Below the pieces are notes generated by a model. The model was given only the letters and a program-made list of their open reading frames with translations, was not told the origin of the DNA and ran no database searches. A program made the position numbers and the translations under genes. Positions 29,511-36,684 of a stretch of 64,000 nucleotides of DNA are shown piece by piece. Numbering within the stretch: the first letter of the stretch is position 1; every line of letters starts with the position of its first letter. This stretch comes from Porphyridium purpureum (lineage: Eukaryota), in the NCBI GenBank assembly GCA_008690995.1, contig VRMN01000004.1:930001-994000 (forward strand), read 5' to 3'.

Positions 29511-30386
29511 TTAAGGAATGTTTCCGCCATGATTTTTCAAGCGCAGCCGGGCCTTGGCTTCCTCGTAGGCTGGATGAATGGGCGCCTGCACCGGCGGAAG
29601 CCGCTCGGCTTCGCCATCACTGTCGCTGAGATCATAGCTCATGTCCGCATCAAAGCCAGACAAGTCGCCACAACTTACAAATGGCACCAAGACGCGGTTG
29701 TCCCCTGTGAGCGAACTCAATGCCTTGTTGCGCAGCGGGTCTGAGTGGAGGTAAGCGTTTGCGATCATCCCAGATGGCATTCGAAAGCCGCGGCACACGA
29801 CAAAAGCTTCGATGGAGCTATTGCGACTGCTACGGGGCTTGGCGATGCACACGTCGTCGAAGAAGACCAGAAGTCGGCCGTATAACAGGTCGGTATCCTT
29901 TTGACGAAACACTTTGGCGACAAAGGAGCCGCCGTCGATCAGTAACTGGAGTGCCACATTCAGCGCCGCTAAAATAAGCTCCGCCTGCACATACTCGTCC
30001 AAATCGTGCACACCAGTCACGTCTGGCGCGCCGTCCGAAATGATAATCTCCGCCTTTTCATCGCCAAGGAGCTCAGCAATGCGCTCCAACGTGCGCTGCT
30101 GGGTGATATCAGCCTGAAGCATGGCGACGCCCGGAATCGGTGCCATTTCCTGCAGGTCCACTGCGACTACTCGCGCATGCGTCCGATCAAGCTCCACCAT
30201 CCTACGCGCGACAACCTGGCTCCAGCTGCCTGGAGCCGCACACAAGTCAATCACACGCGTTACATCTTTGAACAGGTCAAATTGCGCGTCAATCTGCAGC
30301 AGCTTGAACGCCGAACGTGCGCGGTACCCGAGCTCCTTGGCTTTTCGATAGTATATGTCCCGCTTATCCTTAGAGCGCAGCGTCAT
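29511..30386 (-). CDS. TRM7: tRNA (C32/N34) 2'-O-methyltransferase
   Basis: SKDKRDIYYRKAKELGYRARSAFKL, DLCAAPGSWSQV, SDGAPDVTG, KPRSSRNSSIEAF. Confidence 0.95.
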   Translation of the reverse strand: MTLRSKDKRDIYYRKAKELGYRARSAFKLLQIDAQFDLFKDVTRVIDLCAAPGSWSQVVARRMVELDRTHARVVAVDLQEMAPIPGVAMLQADITQQRTLERIAELLGDEKAEIIISDGAPDVTGVHDLDEYVQAELILAALNVALQLLIDGGSFVAKVFRQKDTDLLYGRLLVFFDDVCIAKPRSSRNSSIEAFVVCRGFRMPSGMIANAYLHSDPLRNKALSSLTGDNRVLVPFVSCGDLSGFDADMSYDLSDSDGEAERLPPVQAPIHPAYEEAKARLRLKNHGGNIP

Positions 30387-32808: not shown

Positions 32809-34689
32809 CTACCAAATATTCATTCGCTTCTCGGGGGCTAGATACATGCCATTGCCCTCCTTCACGCCATAGACACGCACGAATTCGTCAATGTGAGCCA
32901 GAGCCGCGTTGATGCGGAACCTCGTTGGCGAATGAGGGTCAATGGTGAGGAACTTGAGCGCGAGCTCTTCACGGATAAGCATACGCCAGATCAGCGCGTA
33001 GGACTCGAAAAAGCGCTTGTATACGTCATCTGGCACCCCGTCCGGATACTTCTTACGCAGCGCGCGTAAAGCGAGCTTGATCCCGCCAATGTCTGCCACA
33101 TTTTCGCCCAGGGTGAGCTCACCATTTACGTTCTTGCCAAAATAGGACTGTGCAGCGTAGTGTTCGACTACCACTTTGGCGCGTGCGTCGTATTCTTTGC
33201 TGTCCTCTGGTCCCCACCAATCCTTCAGCTCGCCAAAGGCGTTGAACTTGCGCCCCTTGTCGTCAAATCCGTGCGTTTGCTCGTGTCCGATCACCACGCC
33301 AATCGCACCAATATTCATTTCGTACTTGTCAAAGCCGAAAAATGGCTCCTGGAGAATGCCTGCGGGAAAAACAATCTCGTTCAAAAGCGGTGAGTAGTAT
33401 GCGTTCACAATCTGCGGATGCATGCTCCACAGCTCCCTCTCTGGCGGGGTGTAGAACTTGTCCACTTGTTCCGCCTGCCAATACCACTCCGAATAGCTCT
33501 TCCTGAGTTCGGCAAGCGATTTGCCCTCCACGCCATCCGGCCACAAACCTTCGATCGAGTGCCACTGCGTCGGGTAGCCAATCTTGACTCCAAATTTGCT
33601 GTGTTTCAACAATGCGTGCTCCTTTGTTTCGGGCGACATCCACGAAACTTCGACAAGGGTCTCGCGGAGCGCTTCAACGAGATCATCTACCATGTCCATA
33701 CACATTTTCTTCTTCTCCTCTGGGAAATGCTTTGCAACGTACAACTTGCCAAGCTCGTCACCGATGAATCCTTCCATCTTGCTGAGTGCGCGCTTCCATG
33801 GTTCGTCCATTTTCTGTTGCCCGTTGAGGAGCTTACCATGAAAGTCAAAGTGTGCCTGAATCAACTCTGCGCTCGAAAAGGGCGCGTACGTGTCCGCGAC
33901 GCGGAAAATCAGGTGACCTACAAGAGTGGAAACATCAGTGATCTTCAGCAACGCGGGGAGAAACTCCATGAGCTTGGGGTTTTGTACCACGATTTCTCGC
34001 TTCTTCTCATCCGGAATATCCAAGTGGACGAAGAAGGACGGCAAAAGCGCCTGCATGTACTCGAACTCGCGCTTGTTGTACGTAAGGTCCGGGTCGCGGC
34101 ACTCCACACGCGTCAAATGAATTTTCGCGACCGTGCTCTCAAACGCAAACACCTTTTCCGCGTCGACGTCAGGGGCACCGCTGAGCCGACACACCTGGGC
34201 AATATACTTTTTGTAAGGCTCGTGCAGATCTTTGCGATCGGTGTAGTAGCTCATATCCGGCAGGCCGAGCCCGGCTTGGCTAAAGTAGGGAACGCGGAGC
34301 TCCGGGTTTTTCGCGTCCTGCATGTTGAACATCCGAAACAAAGCCGTCACGCCCTGGGTCTGCAGCTCTCCCACTTTGCACACATAGCTCACATCATCAC
34401 ACACATCCTGCGTGATGCCATCAAACATCTGCTGGACCACCTCCGCGGGCTGGGACGCGCTCTGCTGCTGCAACGCAATGTTGTACACCGCCGCGACGAG
34501 CCCAGACTCTGGCGCCTCACAAATTACGCGACAGCGCTCCAGGTTCGCCTCGCGAAGAATCATAAACGAGCCCCACCGACTCTGGTCCTCCGGTATGATG
34601 GTGCTCTTGTAGAACTCGCCATTCACATACTCGTCGAAATCGTCCGCCGCCACATCTGCATTCGGGCGATCCACTGCCACAGGCGCCAT
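32809..34689 (-). CDS. M13 family zinc endopeptidase (PepO/neprilysin-like)
   Basis: VNAYY, IVFPAGILQ, HEQTHGFD, GENVADIGG, DPHSP; no signal peptide or TM segment. Confidence 0.93.
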   Translation of the reverse strand: MAPVAVDRPNADVAADDFDEYVNGEFYKSTIIPEDQSRWGSFMILREANLERCRVICEAPESGLVAAVYNIALQQQSASQPAEVVQQMFDGITQDVCDDVSYVCKVGELQTQGVTALFRMFNMQDAKNPELRVPYFSQAGLGLPDMSYYTDRKDLHEPYKKYIAQVCRLSGAPDVDAEKVFAFESTVAKIHLTRVECRDPDLTYNKREFEYMQALLPSFFVHLDIPDEKKREIVVQNPKLMEFLPALLKITDVSTLVGHLIFRVADTYAPFSSAELIQAHFDFHGKLLNGQQKMDEPWKRALSKMEGFIGDELGKLYVAKHFPEEKKKMCMDMVDDLVEALRETLVEVSWMSPETKEHALLKHSKFGVKIGYPTQWHSIEGLWPDGVEGKSLAELRKSYSEWYWQAEQVDKFYTPPERELWSMHPQIVNAYYSPLLNEIVFPAGILQEPFFGFDKYEMNIGAIGVVIGHEQTHGFDDKGRKFNAFGELKDWWGPEDSKEYDARAKVVVEHYAAQSYFGKNVNGELTLGENVADIGGIKLALRALRKKYPDGVPDDVYKRFFESYALIWRMLIREELALKFLTIDPHSPTRFRINAALAHIDEFVRVYGVKEGNGMYLAPEKRMNIW

Positions 34690-34862
34690 TGTTGATCCCA
34701 CGCAACCTCAACTCGCTCGCGCTCGCTTGTCAAACGTCCACGCCAATCAAGATATCCCCGCTTTCTCTTGTCCTTCGAAGCCGTCAATTGCAGCTCATAC
34801 TCTTTTTCCTCCTTCCAACCGAAACACCATGCGTTACCACAACGCTTCGTTGATGTTGTAAA

Positions 34863-34879
34863 TTTATATATTTTAATTT
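34863..34879 (+). promoter_or_regulatory. TATA-like element upstream of the permuted tRNA
   Basis: TTTATATATTTTAATTT, 30-46 nt before the tRNA 3' half in an otherwise GC-rich background. Confidence 0.6.
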
Positions 34880-34908
34880 CCCCCTCGTCAAGCATGCTTT
34901 TCTGTGGG

Positions 34909-34984
34909 ATCGGCAGGTTAGCAGTTCGATTCTGTTCACGCCCTCGATGGGCGCGTAGCTCAATGGTAGAGCGGCCGACTGCAG
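34909..34984 (+). tRNA. tRNA-Cys(GCA): Circularly permuted tRNA-Cys(GCA): 3' half 34909-34944, spacer CGAT, 5' half 34949-34984
   Basis: Rejoined halves form a cloverleaf: acceptor GGGCGCG/CACGCCC (one C-A mismatch), D arm GCTC/GAGC, anticodon stem GCCGA/TCGGC with loop CTGCAGA, T arm AGCAG-TTCGATT-CTGTT, discriminator U73. Confidence 0.9.
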
Positions 34985-34994
34985 TGTACGAAAC

Positions 34995-35003
34995 TTTCTT
35001 TTT
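34995..35003 (+). terminator. Pol III terminator-like T-tract
   Basis: TTTCTTTTT 10 nt after the tRNA 5' half. Confidence 0.65.
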
Positions 35004-35223
35004 GTGATCCACCCCAGGTTGTTATTTTTTTTTCTCTCCCTGACCTCGCTGTTGTTCTGCTTCGCAAGAGCGTGCGTGATTATTTGCTCTGTCTTGCCTT
35101 TTGCCAAAGTGCTTCGGAGATCGTCATGGAACGCGGAACACTGCGTCTCTCACTTTCTTCCAATTATTCTGTCCTGCGATGCTAAAGATTTGTCTCGATA
35201 TTCAAATTGTCCCTCCAGTTATC

Positions 35224-36684
35224 CTAGAGTAGCAAACGCTCGACGCACAGCGCGTACAAGGCAGAGCCTGCTTGTCGTAGGCGCTCGTTCTCGACGCGCA
35301 GCCGTTCGGCCTCACGGAATATCTCCATGGTCGCCACGGAAGATGGATGCATGGGGTCGTACCCAGTGTCTGCTTCGGTACTTGCGACGGCATGCCCTGG
35401 TACCGCGGCTTGCGCCCGCACTTCTCGCTCGGAATGATACAGACTGGTATCGATCAGTGCGTTGACGAAATCTGAACCGTTGTGCGAGCGTGCGTGCCCT
35501 GGCAGCGCTGGCGCGCGGACCACAGGACAGTAAGGCTTGTTCTGGTCCGCCATGTTGTGATTCCATAATTGTCTTTGCAGGTAGGCGAAAGGAAATTCCG
35601 CAAAGGGAAGCGATGGTAACGCGGCCCCTGTTGCTGGTGGTGCGTCGCTTTTGCCGCTCACAGTACTGCTGATACCACCACCTTCGACTAGATTTCCGGC
35701 CTCGCTGTCCGTGCGCCGGAGCAGCATGATTCCTGTTAACGGTGCGTGATGCTTATCGTACACGGACAAGCATATCTGGCTGTTTGCGTCCCAGCGTCGC
35801 AAAGTACCGTCCTCGCTCGCGGAGATAAGCCATGAGTCACACCACGACACCTCGACCTGCACGACCGCAGCTGCATGCCCGAGCAGCAGCTCGACGCGCG
35901 ATTGCGATCGCGCCGATGACGTGGGTACTAGGTAGAGGCACGCAATGTGCCCATTCTTCATGCCAACGTACGCGCGGGAGCTCATGTGGTTTACCTTGAC
36001 ACTGCACGCCGCACTCGGAAGCACAAAGTCGCGGATTCGAGCACCGGACGCCACGTGCCAAAGGAGAGCGCGCGCATCGTCCCCTACAGTCACAAGCACA
36101 CCGTTCGCAGAGGTACCGCAGCCCACGTCCACGTCGCGAATGGGAAGCGAGTGCCCGTCGTACGTCACTCGCGGCTTGATTGCGGCGCGTACCGAAACGG
36201 ACAAGTGTGCCCCGAAAATATCGCTCACGGCCCACGCGTACGCTACACTGTCTTCGCCGCCCGTGATCAGCAGGGCGCTGTCATCTGTCAAACGCATGCA
36301 CGTCACAGTCAGCACGTGCGCGTCCCAAACCCGACACAGCACGCCCGTCGATGTCTCCCACGCATAAACTTTTCCGTTGGCGCAGCCAGCGAACATCAAC
36401 TTGGCGTCCCGCGACGCGGCCAAGCACGTCACGGCCTCTGGGAAGGACCAGCGCACCATGCGCGGCTTGGCCGTTGCTGCGGGCGAGCCACTCGAGATCA
36501 GCACAAACGTGTGCGGTGCGGTGTACGCGAGGACCAACGCGCCCCCGAAAAGCGGGACAATCGCGCCACGCCGCGTTACACCGAGCGCCATCTGGCGCCG
36601 CGGCGCCGCATCATCCGGCTGCCACACGTGCACCGCGTTAGCTCCTACTGCGTGGCTCCATACTACATACTCGGCGGCGGCCAT
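35224..36684 (-). CDS. WDR18: WD40 protein WDR18/Ipi3 (Rix1 complex)
   Basis: PEAVTCLAAS, GKVYAWETSTG, WDAHV, TGGEDS, HSLPIRD; C-terminal coiled coil. Confidence 0.8.
   Translation of the reverse strand: MAAAEYVVWSHAVGANAVHVWQPDDAAPRRQMALGVTRRGAIVPLFGGALVLAYTAPHTFVLISSGSPAATAKPRMVRWSFPEAVTCLAASRDAKLMFAGCANGKVYAWETSTGVLCRVWDAHVLTVTCMRLTDDSALLITGGEDSVAYAWAVSDIFGAHLSVSVRAAIKPRVTYDGHSLPIRDVDVGCGTSANGVLVTVGDDARALLWHVASGARIRDFVLPSAACSVKVNHMSSRAYVGMKNGHIACLYLVPTSSARSQSRVELLLGHAAAVVQVEVSWCDSWLISASEDGTLRRWDANSQICLSVYDKHHAPLTGIMLLRRTDSEAGNLVEGGGISSTVSGKSDAPPATGAALPSLPFAEFPFAYLQRQLWNHNMADQNKPYCPVVRAPALPGHARSHNGSDFVNALIDTSLYHSEREVRAQAAVPGHAVASTEADTGYDPMHPSSVATMEIFREAERLRVENERLRQAGSALYALCVERLLL

What the first reader, a model, noticed from the sequence alone, without database searches (positions are those of the whole stretch)
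34863..35003. Circularly permuted tRNA-Cys(GCA) gene with only a 4-nt spacer
Seen: the tRNA 3' half (ATCGGC AGGTT AGCAG TTCGATT CTGTT CACGCCC T, 34909-34944) precedes the 5' half (GGGCGCG TA GCTC AATGGTA GAGC G GCCGA CTGCAG, 34949-34984), separated by CGAT. The break is in the anticodon loop at about 37/38, the canonical intron position. The B-box therefore precedes the A-box; a TATA-like tract lies upstream and TTTCTTTTT downstream. The leader CTGTGG (34902-34907) can pair with CTGCAG of the anticodon loop, giving a relaxed bulge-helix substrate rather than a strict BHB. No second 3' half lies downstream. Known: permuted tRNAs that mature through a circular intermediate are described in Cyanidioschyzon merolae, prasinophytes, the Bigelowiella nucleomorph and Thermofilum. 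Inference: this is a functional permuted gene in a lineage where I know of no report, and standard tRNA scans would miss it.
Basis: partly seen in the sequence, partly recalled or inferred. Interest (0 to 1): 0.92.

Follow-up and report, generated by a model that had tools for sequence, protein, structure and literature searches.

The report
Back-to-front cysteine tRNA gene, red alga
A single-celled red alga (likely Porphyridium purpureum) carries a cysteine tRNA gene written back half first with only four bases between the halves, likely its only cysteine tRNA gene and predicted to mature by being cut, closed into a ring and reopened, a rare layout so far reported among red algae only for the hot-spring species Cyanidioschyzon merolae.

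Summary
Observation confirmed. tRNA positions 38-73 (34909-34944) precede positions 1-37 (34949-34984) with a 4-nt spacer. Swapped, they give a 72-nt tRNA-Cys(GCA) with U73; chance controls give 0 of 100. Single contigs from three independent DNA studies show the same order, so it is not a misassembly. The host is a Porphyridiales red alga (tree support 99/94), likely P. purpureum (inferred). A published tRNAscan-SE list for that species has no Cys gene among 30 rows, while the seven other red algae listed have one, so this gene likely fills an essential gap. The type is known: permuted tRNA-Cys(GCA) broken at 37/38 is published for Ostreococcus and Micromonas, and my pattern scan recovered the O. 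lucimarinus gene. New as far as my searches reach: a red alga outside Cyanidiophyceae, a spacer one base shorter than any eukaryotic one listed, and a junction helix one base off the usual register. Expression and the circular intermediate are untested, and the fold is no more stable than shuffles. This scan has noted permuted tRNAs on other DNA before. Verdict: new member of a known kind.

The parts
34859..34879 (+). A/T-only tract with TATATA (34865-34870); likely upstream RNA polymerase III promoter element
   Evidence: Only A/T run of 17 or more bases in the window; TATATA occurs at 3 places in 64 kb. Function inferred from PMC3978253 section 5.
34889..34908 (+). Predicted 5' leader. CAA at 34889-34891 is a candidate start region 25 nt after TATATA; T4 at 34898-34901; 34902-34907 can pair with anticodon-loop positions 32-37; G34906 (-3) is the candidate partner of C32
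   Evidence: Sequence, folds. The CAA start motif of plant tRNA genes is recalled, not from a call. Run X2 reads T at 34897, which makes the run T5.
34909..34944 (+). tRNA 3' half, positions 38-73: 3' anticodon stem, 5-nt variable loop, T arm (B box), 3' acceptor strand, discriminator U73
34945..34948 (+). 4-nt intervening sequence (CGAT); with U73 it closes the acceptor stem with a 5-nt loop
34949..34984 (+). tRNA 5' half, positions 1-37: 5' acceptor strand, U8, D arm (A box), 5' anticodon stem, C32 U33, anticodon GCA (34981-34983), G37
34985..35003 (+). Predicted trailer and polymerase III terminator (T3-C-T5; T5 at 34999-35003; a longer T run begins at 35025)
32809..34689 (-). Neighbour on one side: M13 peptidase gene (context only, opposite strand)
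   Evidence: ORF; PF05649 E 2e-82 and PF01431 E 2e-53
35224..36684 (-). Neighbour on the other side: WD40-repeat protein gene (context only, opposite strand)
   Evidence: ORF; PF00400 E 2e-16

Best explanation
This is a nuclear tRNA-Cys(GCA) gene of a Porphyridiales red alga (likely Porphyridium purpureum) whose 3' half is written before its 5' half, likely the alga's only cytosolic cysteine tRNA gene and predicted to mature through a circular RNA. Shown: the order of the halves, the complete cloverleaf after swapping them, the Cys identity elements (GCA, U73), the flanking TATA-like and oligo-T tracts, and the same DNA order in three independent sequencing studies. Inferred from C. merolae and prasinophyte work: (1) RNA polymerase III starts from the upstream TATA-like tract, because the inverted B and A boxes suit TFIIIC poorly, and stops at the T run. 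(2) The linear precursor folds into a tRNA body whose acceptor stem is closed by a 5-nt loop and whose anticodon loop is open, leader and trailer standing in for the two ends of an intron. (3) The tRNA splicing endonuclease cuts after G37 and before A38. Since the junction is not a clean bulge-helix motif, I favour ruler-type recognition of the tRNA body aided by a C32:G(-3) pair. (4) A tRNA ligase joins 37 to 38, giving a 76-nt circle. (5) RNase P and tRNase Z (or an exonuclease after the first nick) remove the four spacer bases and CCA is added. (6) The product reads both UGC and UGU codons.
For: Swapped halves score as tRNA-Cys(gca), 72 nt, with all 14 D-, anticodon- and T-stem pairs and 6 of 7 acceptor pairs, and with U8, A14, A15:U48, G18G19, U33, G53-U54-U55-C56, A58, C61, U73. 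Chance: 0 of 100 in two null tests. Real in DNA: X2 record 3 spans 34600-34992, X4 record 8 spans 34818-35150, X9 record 12 spans 34909-35300, each as one contig through both halves and the spacer. None of the eight letter differences or the one deletion listed falls in 34909-34984, and no joint or loose end appears at 80% likeness (3 DNA runs, 3 studies). An unbroken contig also argues against a second copy sharing 31 or more identical bases with either half (inference). Host: best named relatives of the window's TRM7-like protein are red algae; it groups with Erythrolobus at 99/94 in a 25-row tree; window G+C 0.559 equals the 0.559 given for P. purpureum (PMC10496412 Table 1). Gap filled: that paper's tRNAscan-SE list for P. 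purpureum has 0 Cys among 30 rows (2 undetermined), while all 7 other red algae have at least one; the window's 22 long ORFs use 162 UGC and 79 UGU codons of 12,114. Same design elsewhere: 19 of 20 loci found with the pattern are permuted tRNA-Cys genes, among them the O. lucimarinus gene with its published 26-nt spacer. Across 9 distinct genes 95% of cells pair and 13 of 25 pairs change on both sides, 0 of 500 shuffles.
Against: No RNA evidence for the precursor, the circle or the mature tRNA. The junction is atypical: in the canonical 3-nt-bulge register the window forms only 1 of 4 pairs (C32:G-3), whereas U33:-4 pairs in the other 8 of 9 genes. The stable helix sits one base off, and the C32:G(-3) form costs 4.6 kcal/mol more (-26.1 against -30.7) with pair probability near 0. 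The precursor folds no better than shuffles and anticodon- and T-stem pairs have probabilities of only 0.26-0.37. The acceptor stem has a C6.A67 mismatch. The leader holds a T4 run (T5 in run X2) that could stop polymerase III if transcription starts at the CAA. The genome was not available, so other hidden Cys genes (atypical introns, split genes) cannot be excluded; the same list also lacks Asn, Asp, His, Thr, Trp and initiator Met, so tRNAscan-SE misses many genes in this species. The species name is inferred from one protein tree and G+C. The covariation shows that the family is under tRNA constraint, not that this copy is, and part of the invariance is built into the search pattern.
Confidence: 0.78

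Rival explanations
1. Functional permuted tRNA-Cys gene, but matured without a circle: RNase P and tRNase Z open the short acceptor loop of the linear precursor first, and the two base-paired halves are then spliced at 37/38 as in split tRNAs.
For: The acceptor stem top is the most stable element of the precursor (pair probability 0.89 against about 0.3 for the junction helix), and both enzymes recognise the acceptor stem and T arm without the rest (PMC3978253 section 6). The junction is a weak endonuclease motif.
Against: Circular intermediates were detected for red and green algal permuted tRNAs (PMC3978253 section 6). The two routes can coexist and the sequence alone does not separate them.
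Confidence: 0.09
2. Dead or dying relic: the inner halves of an old tandem duplication of an intron-bearing tRNA-Cys gene, no longer processed, with the real gene hidden elsewhere (for example broken by a D- or T-loop intron).
For: C6.A67 mismatch, off-register junction, unremarkable folding energy, T4/T5 run in the leader. P. purpureum clearly has other tRNA genes that tRNAscan-SE misses, and Chondrus hides essential tRNAs behind D- and T-loop introns (10.1101/2021.12.21.473619).
Against: All conserved positions and identity elements are intact, promoter-like and terminator-like tracts are present, no variant lies in the 76-nt body in three DNA runs while nine lie in the flanks (weak by itself), and no contig with a related conventional copy was laid at 80% likeness (contigs show presence, not absence).
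Confidence: 0.08
3. A tRNA mimic of the YrlA (bacterial Y RNA) kind that stays unprocessed and works with a closed acceptor loop.
For: Rfam YrlA matches 34912-34979 at 32.9 bits, E 0.0028; YrlA has the same T arm, closed acceptor, D arm order (10.1101/312249).
Against: The score is far below the gathering score of 69 and only model positions 23-88 match. All 10 permuted-Cys loci given to score 27-37 bits, including the O. lucimarinus gene, so the hit is generic. The locus keeps a full anticodon loop and U73; the neighbours are a WD40 protein and an M13 peptidase, not Ro60.
Confidence: 0.04
4. Assembly artefact or collapsed tandem array of normal tRNA-Cys genes.
For: None found. A tandem pair can mimic the pattern: locus L015 is such a case.
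Against: Three DNA runs from three studies each carry both halves and the spacer in one contig with unique flanks, without joints; no 5' half precedes and no 3' half follows.
Confidence: 0.01

Closest known systems
Type II (37/38) permuted tRNA-Cys(GCA) genes of Ostreococcus lucimarinus, O. tauri and Micromonas pusilla (Maruyama et al. 2010, not read; as tabulated in PMC3978253 Table 1)
   Same: Isotype, anticodon, junction position, no intron, downstream T run, purine at leader -3 able to pair with position 32.
   Different: Host is a red alga; spacer 4 nt against 26, 38 and 12; junction lacks the canonical 3-nt bulge plus 4-bp helix; mature domain only 71-72% identical to the Ostreococcus and Micromonas-like loci, no closer than to other permuted Cys genes (65-78%), so no sign of recent transfer.
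Permuted tRNA genes of Cyanidioschyzon merolae (11 genes, types I-IV; Soma et al. 2007, 2013; PMC3978253)
   Same: Red algal nuclear gene, compact genome with few tRNA genes, TATA-like tract within 50 bp upstream, T stretch downstream, nothing promoter-like in the spacer.
   Different: None of the 11 is Cys; C. merolae has an ordinary 72-nt Cys gene (PMC10496412 Table S4a); its spacers are 7-74 nt; different red algal class.
Short-spacer permuted tRNAs: Bigelowiella natans nucleomorph tRNA-Ser (5 nt) and Thermofilum pendens tRNA-Tyr (1 nt, CCA encoded)
   Same: Very short loop closing the acceptor stem.
   Different: 4 nt is one base below the eukaryotic minimum listed (PMC3978253 Table 1; PMC3218864 gives 5-85 nt for algae) but above the archaeal one; CCA is not encoded here.
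YrlA bacterial Y RNA (Rfam RF02553)
   Same: Order of arms and closed acceptor stem.
   Different: Sub-threshold score, complete anticodon loop and discriminator, eukaryotic nuclear context, no Ro60 gene beside it.

Membership tests
Circularly permuted tRNA genes, type II (37/38) | 3' half upstream of 5' half on one strand, separated by an intervening sequence at the acceptor-stem ends | tested here: met
   same order in single contigs of 3 DNA runs
Circularly permuted tRNA genes, type II (37/38) | Halves rejoin to an ordinary eukaryotic cloverleaf with consensus nucleotides, CCA not encoded | tested here: met
   ARAGORN tRNA-Cys(gca), 72 nt; position map; one acceptor mismatch C6.A67
Circularly permuted tRNA genes, type II (37/38) | Break in the anticodon loop at 37/38 | tested here: met
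   On sequence: 5' half ends at G37, 3' half starts at A38; a 36/37 cut gives the same product, and the true cut site needs RNA data
Circularly permuted tRNA genes, type II (37/38) | Leader and trailer can form a splicing-endonuclease motif (bulge-helix-bulge in strict, relaxed or 'no H' form) | tested here: inconclusive
   A 6-bp helix with a 2-nt bulge is the minimum-energy fold; the canonical register gives only C32:G(-3). 'No H' junctions are accepted in the family (PMC3978253 sections 4 and 8)
Circularly permuted tRNA genes, type II (37/38) | Upstream TATA-like or A/T-rich tract and downstream T stretch, none in the spacer | tested here: met
   34859-34879 and 34999-35003
Circularly permuted tRNA genes, type II (37/38) | Linear permuted precursor, circular intermediate, CCA-tailed aminoacylated product | not testable with these tools
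   Only assembled contigs were on offer; no small-RNA reads were examined
Green-algal hBH junction subtype | 3-nt bulge at the 3' splice site followed by a 4-bp helix of positions 32-35 with leader -3 to -6 | tested here: not met
   Window forms 1 of 4 pairs in this register; 75% of cells pair over all 9 genes
YrlA (RF02553) | Rfam gathering score 69 bits | tested here: not met
   32.9 bits, model 23-88 of 114
YrlA (RF02553) | No anticodon loop; Ro60-binding stem; encoded beside Ro60/Rsr | tested here: not met
   Full anticodon loop sequence present; neighbours are WD40 and M13 peptidase genes; definition from 10.1101/312249

The most novel reading that the evidence does not exclude
Porphyridium hides a whole set of essential tRNAs as permuted genes, of which this sole cysteine tRNA is the first found. 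Permutation of tRNA-Cys at 37/38 is then a recurrent eukaryotic solution, reached separately in a mesophilic red alga, Mamiellales, a Chlorellales green alga, an unplaced and possibly non-algal eukaryote (also with a 4-nt spacer) and a giant virus. The 4-nt spacer with an off-register junction would show that the ordinary ruler-type splicing endonuclease and the end-processing nucleases suffice to mature permuted tRNAs without a true bulge-helix motif, testable in a culturable alga.
Probability: 0.35. Interest if true: 0.7.

Novelty: new member of a known kind. Interest (0 to 1): 0.5.

Why it matters
Recent reviews treat permuted tRNAs in red algae as a peculiarity of the hot-spring alga C. 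merolae, note that Chondrus lacks them, and leave open whether the layout is ancestral or convergent (PMC13578239). A permuted gene in Porphyridiales puts the layout in a second red algal class, with an isotype that is ordinary in C. merolae and permuted in prasinophytes; this patchiness favours repeated origin. It would explain why the published tRNA list of P. purpureum has no cysteine tRNA and predicts more hidden genes (Asn, Asp, His, Thr, Trp and initiator Met are also missing). The 4-nt spacer and imperfect junction mark the lower limit of what the splicing endonuclease, RNase P and tRNase Z must handle. If the gene is single and essential, it is a clean test case. The mechanism itself is not new.

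Tried and rejected
No whole genome is held, so Cys genes could not be counted directly and splicing-endonuclease genes could not be sought. ARAGORN on the window, with and without introns: 0 genes at default threshold; relaxed thresholds gave 9 and 212 noise calls. Rfam RF00005 does not hit the locus as written; only a sub-threshold YrlA match. The one RNA run laid (X19, marine metatranscriptome contigs) covers 34601-34751 and 35169-35300 and nothing over the tRNA; a part without cover in contigs is no evidence either way. The other RNA-type runs were not examined, so expression stays open. Folding energy against shuffles does not single the locus out. The lack of variants in the tRNA body is not significant on its own (nine differences over about 385 flanking intergenic bases lead one to expect only about 2 in 76 bases; my arithmetic). 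The doubled depth at 34963-34992 in X2 is contig overlap, not copy number. The pattern found 0 matches in genome contigs, and no other red algal locus in metagenome contigs could be recognised. The record behind L020 is not held for whole-record search. The ESM Atlas look-up of a window protein gave no host information. Mature-domain identities (62-79% between groups) are too flat to test common against separate origin; no tree was built from them. Supplements of PMC12633428 held as text had no 'permuted', so which isotypes are permuted in Auxenochlorella is unknown to me. Maruyama et al. 2010 and Soma et al. 2007 were not read; they may hold statements on other red algae.

Full report
1. The observation. 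Positions 34909-34944 are tRNA positions 38-73, CGAT follows, and 34949-34984 are positions 1-37. ARAGORN sees 0 genes in the window as written, but with the halves swapped it calls a 72-nt tRNA-Cys(gca) at its default threshold. All 14 pairs of the D, anticodon and T stems form, as do 6 of 7 acceptor pairs (C6.A67 is a mismatch). U8, A14, the A15:U48 pair, G18G19, U33, G53-U54-U55-C56, A58 and C61 are in place, as are the anticodon GCA and U73, which I recall as the cysteine identity elements. A Cys-type permuted pattern matches once in the window and in 0 of 100 shuffles. A structure-based scanner hits only this locus; in 100 Markov windows it gives 42 loose and 0 strict hits. Against: the precursor folds no better than shuffles (z -0.35, +0.43, -0.32).

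2. Is the DNA real? Of 24 runs listed, 20 hold most of the surrounding 3 kb, from 8 studies. I laid 4 of them. In the three DNA runs, from three studies, one contig each runs through both halves and the spacer (X2 34600-34992, X4 34818-35150, X9 34909-35300), with no joints or loose ends at 80% likeness. Eight letter differences and one deletion are listed, all outside the 76-nt body. Misassembly or a collapsed array is thereby excluded for practical purposes. That the contigs do not break inside the halves argues against a second copy with 31 or more identical bases (inference; a divergent Cys gene would not show). The RNA run gave no cover over the locus, which proves nothing.

3. Host and context. 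The gene lies on the + strand in the 534-base gap between an M13 peptidase gene and a WD40 gene, both on the - strand. The window is gene-dense with long unbroken ORFs. The best named relatives of its TRM7-like methyltransferase are from Rhodosorus, Chondrus and Erythrolobus. In a tree of 25 of the 120 listed rows, chosen to include all named red algae plus outgroups, it groups with Erythrolobus and two unnamed rows at 99/94, which places it in Porphyridiales. Window G+C is 0.559, the figure given for P. purpureum in PMC10496412 Table 1. I therefore infer P. purpureum at about 0.9; the name comes from no tool.

4. Does the alga need it? Table S4d of PMC10496412 lists the tRNAscan-SE output for P. 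purpureum: 30 rows, 0 Cys, 2 undetermined; each of the 7 other red algae has at least one Cys row. Cys codons are in normal use (162 UGC, 79 UGU of 12,114 codons in 22 window ORFs). The permuted gene fills that gap. The list also lacks Asn, Asp, His, Thr, Trp and initiator Met, which cuts both ways: more hidden genes are predicted, and a second hidden Cys gene cannot be excluded without the genome.

5. Signals. The only A/T run of 17 or more bases in the window (34859-34879, with TATATA at 34865) ends 30 bases before the 3' half, and T5 begins 15 bases after G37. This matches the arrangement described for C. merolae (PMC3978253 sections 4-5). A CAA lies 25 bases after TATATA (the plant start motif is recalled). 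A T4 run in the predicted leader, T5 in run X2, leaves the start site uncertain: it may lie after the run, with a leader of only 5-7 bases.

6. The junction. The minimum-energy fold pairs loop positions 32-37 with leader -2 to -7 and leaves a 2-nt bulge (-30.7 kcal/mol). The canonical form, C32:G(-3) with a 3-nt bulge, needs U33 bulged out and costs -26.1; the core alone is -24.9. Pair probabilities of the junction helix are about 0.3. Among 9 distinct permuted Cys genes the canonical register pairs in 75% of cells: 32:-3 in 8 of 9, 33:-4 in 8 of 9, the window being the exception. The shifted register fits the window almost alone (34:-4 in 1 of 9). Eukaryotic endonucleases measure from the tRNA body and tolerate loose motifs (PMC4090602; PMC3978253 section 8), which is why I favour ruler-type cutting; this is inference.

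7. Relatives. The pattern found 19 loci in metagenome contigs, 1 in viral contigs and 0 in genome contigs. Of the 20, 19 join to tRNA-Cys(gca) and have no linear Cys gene within 400 bases; L015 is an ordinary tandem pair. They fall into 8 sequence types. L005/6/10/14 is O. lucimarinus (neighbouring poly(A) polymerase identical to the named protein), with the published 26-nt spacer: a positive control. L011/18 and L003 are close to it. L001/8/12/16 has the 12-nt spacer published for M. pusilla (identity inferred from spacer and G+C only). L009 lies beside a Notchless gene whose best named hits are Chlorellales. L007/17 has a 4-nt spacer and an unplaced intron-bearing host (best named hit Monosiga, 48%; a weak marker). 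L013/19 is unplaced. L002/4/20 is 29-31% G+C, follows tRNA-Arg and tRNA-Gly genes, and lies near a rhodopsin and an AdoMet decarboxylase gene; one neighbour's nearest Atlas clusters are 91-100% viral, mostly Nucleocytoviricota, and L020 is a giant-virus bin by its record name. On an alignment of the window and 8 of the 19 loci (one per type), 95% of cells pair, 13 of 25 pairs change on both sides, and 0 of 500 shuffles reach this. The pattern fixed the D arm and loop letters, and the search was Cys-specific, so it says nothing on whether Cys is permuted more often than other isotypes.

8. Mechanism. Shown: gene anatomy, cloverleaf, flanking tracts, reality of the DNA. Inferred by analogy with the pathway demonstrated in C. 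merolae and green algae (PMC3978253 section 6): upstream-promoter transcription, cleavage at 37/38, ligation to a 76-nt circle whose acceptor stem is closed by U73 plus four bases, opening by RNase P and tRNase Z, CCA addition. I give this 0.78; a functional gene matured without a circle 0.09; a relic 0.08; an unprocessed mimic 0.04; an artefact 0.01. The YrlA hit (32.9 bits) is generic: all 10 permuted-Cys loci given to score 27-37 bits against a gathering score of 69.

9. What is known. PMC3978253 Table 1 lists 34 permuted genes, with Cys(GCA) type II in O. lucimarinus, O. tauri and M. pusilla, none in C. merolae, and spacers of 5-74 nt in eukaryotes and 1 and 7 in Thermofilum. Later or other reports: Bathycoccus (7) and prasinoviruses BpV1/BpV2 (PMC3673656), the Amorphochlora nucleomorph (PMC4494063), Auxenochlorella (PMC12633428). 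Chondrus lacks permuted genes (PMC13578239). I found no report for Porphyridium or Porphyridiales in these searches: 'permuted tRNA' (74 papers, 40 listed; from 2019, 34 papers, 30 listed), Porphyridium + permuted (6), permuted + tRNA + Porphyridiales (0), permuted tRNA + red alga from 2015 (14), and two Porphyridium tRNA searches. The library lacks most subscription papers. What I saw of each paper: PMC3978253 abstract, sections 4, 5, 6, 8 and the first part of 10; PMC10496412 passages and supplement file 7 (part 1 and all Cys rows); passages only of PMC13578239, 10.1101/2021.12.21.473619, PMC12633428, PMC4494063, PMC3673656, PMC3218864, PMC4090602 and 10.1101/312249; PMC3728597 a term search without hits; Soma 2007 and Maruyama 2010 not read.

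10. Verdict. A real, well-formed type II permuted tRNA-Cys gene, a new member of a known kind, in a red algal class with no report that I could find, probably essential. The spacer is the shortest eukaryotic one by a single base and is matched by L007. Interest 0.5. Earlier notes of this scan list permuted tRNAs in several other eukaryotes and in phages (unchecked), none on this DNA or a look-alike, which suggests that the layout is under-annotated rather than very rare.

Noticed in passing
L002:395-499(-), L004:769-831(-), L020:286-364(+): Permuted tRNA-Cys(GCA) with a 7-nt spacer and a canonical junction helix, directly after ordinary tRNA-Arg(ACG) and tRNA-Gly(TCC) genes, in AT-rich DNA near a rhodopsin and an AdoMet decarboxylase gene; giant-virus (Nucleocytoviricota) context. 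A permuted tRNA was predicted before in prasinoviruses BpV1/BpV2 (PMC3673656); I found no report for this isotype or virus type.
   Followed up: partly
L007:2471-2572(+), L017:1082-1141(-): Permuted tRNA-Cys(GCA) with a 4-nt spacer in an intron-bearing eukaryote whose neighbouring Na/Ca exchanger has opisthokont best named hits at 48%; may be a non-algal host, not placed.
   Followed up: partly
L009:576-685(+): Permuted tRNA-Cys(GCA), 12-nt spacer, beside a Notchless gene closest to Micractinium and Chlorella: a Chlorellales green alga; its mature domain is the closest to the window's (78%).
   Followed up: partly
L013:1615-1680(-), L019:291-398(+): Permuted tRNA-Cys(GCA), 10-nt spacer, host not identified (no informative ORF in the short contigs).
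   Followed up: no
PMC10496412 Table S4d: The P. purpureum tRNAscan-SE list lacks Cys, Asn, Asp, His, Thr, Trp and initiator Met, and many listed genes are 100-220 nt long: a rich set of disrupted tRNA genes is probably unannotated.
   Followed up: no
window 34897 (run X2): C to T difference at full depth that lengthens the leader's T4 run to T5, a possible polymerase III stop just before the gene body.
   Followed up: no
window 34909 (run X9, record 12): The contig begins exactly at the first base of the 3' half, with no cover over 34774-34908. A variant at leader -1 or a dropped record would explain it; the contig does not break at G37, so a joined form does not.
   Followed up: partly
L001:2426-2470(+) and L002 just upstream of the 3' half: A T-arm-like hairpin lies right before the leader in the Micromonas-like loci (no ARAGORN call there); in the viral loci the leader begins immediately after tRNA-Gly, suggesting a shared transcript.
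   Followed up: no
L015 1-3084: About 25 tRNA genes and one 5S rRNA packed in both orientations within 3 kb, including tRNA-Sec; the only false positive of the pattern; origin not examined.
   Followed up: no
window 29511-30386 (-): TRM7/FtsJ-like tRNA anticodon-loop 2'-O-methyltransferase gene 4.5 kb from the tRNA; used as host marker, proximity probably incidental.
   Followed up: partly
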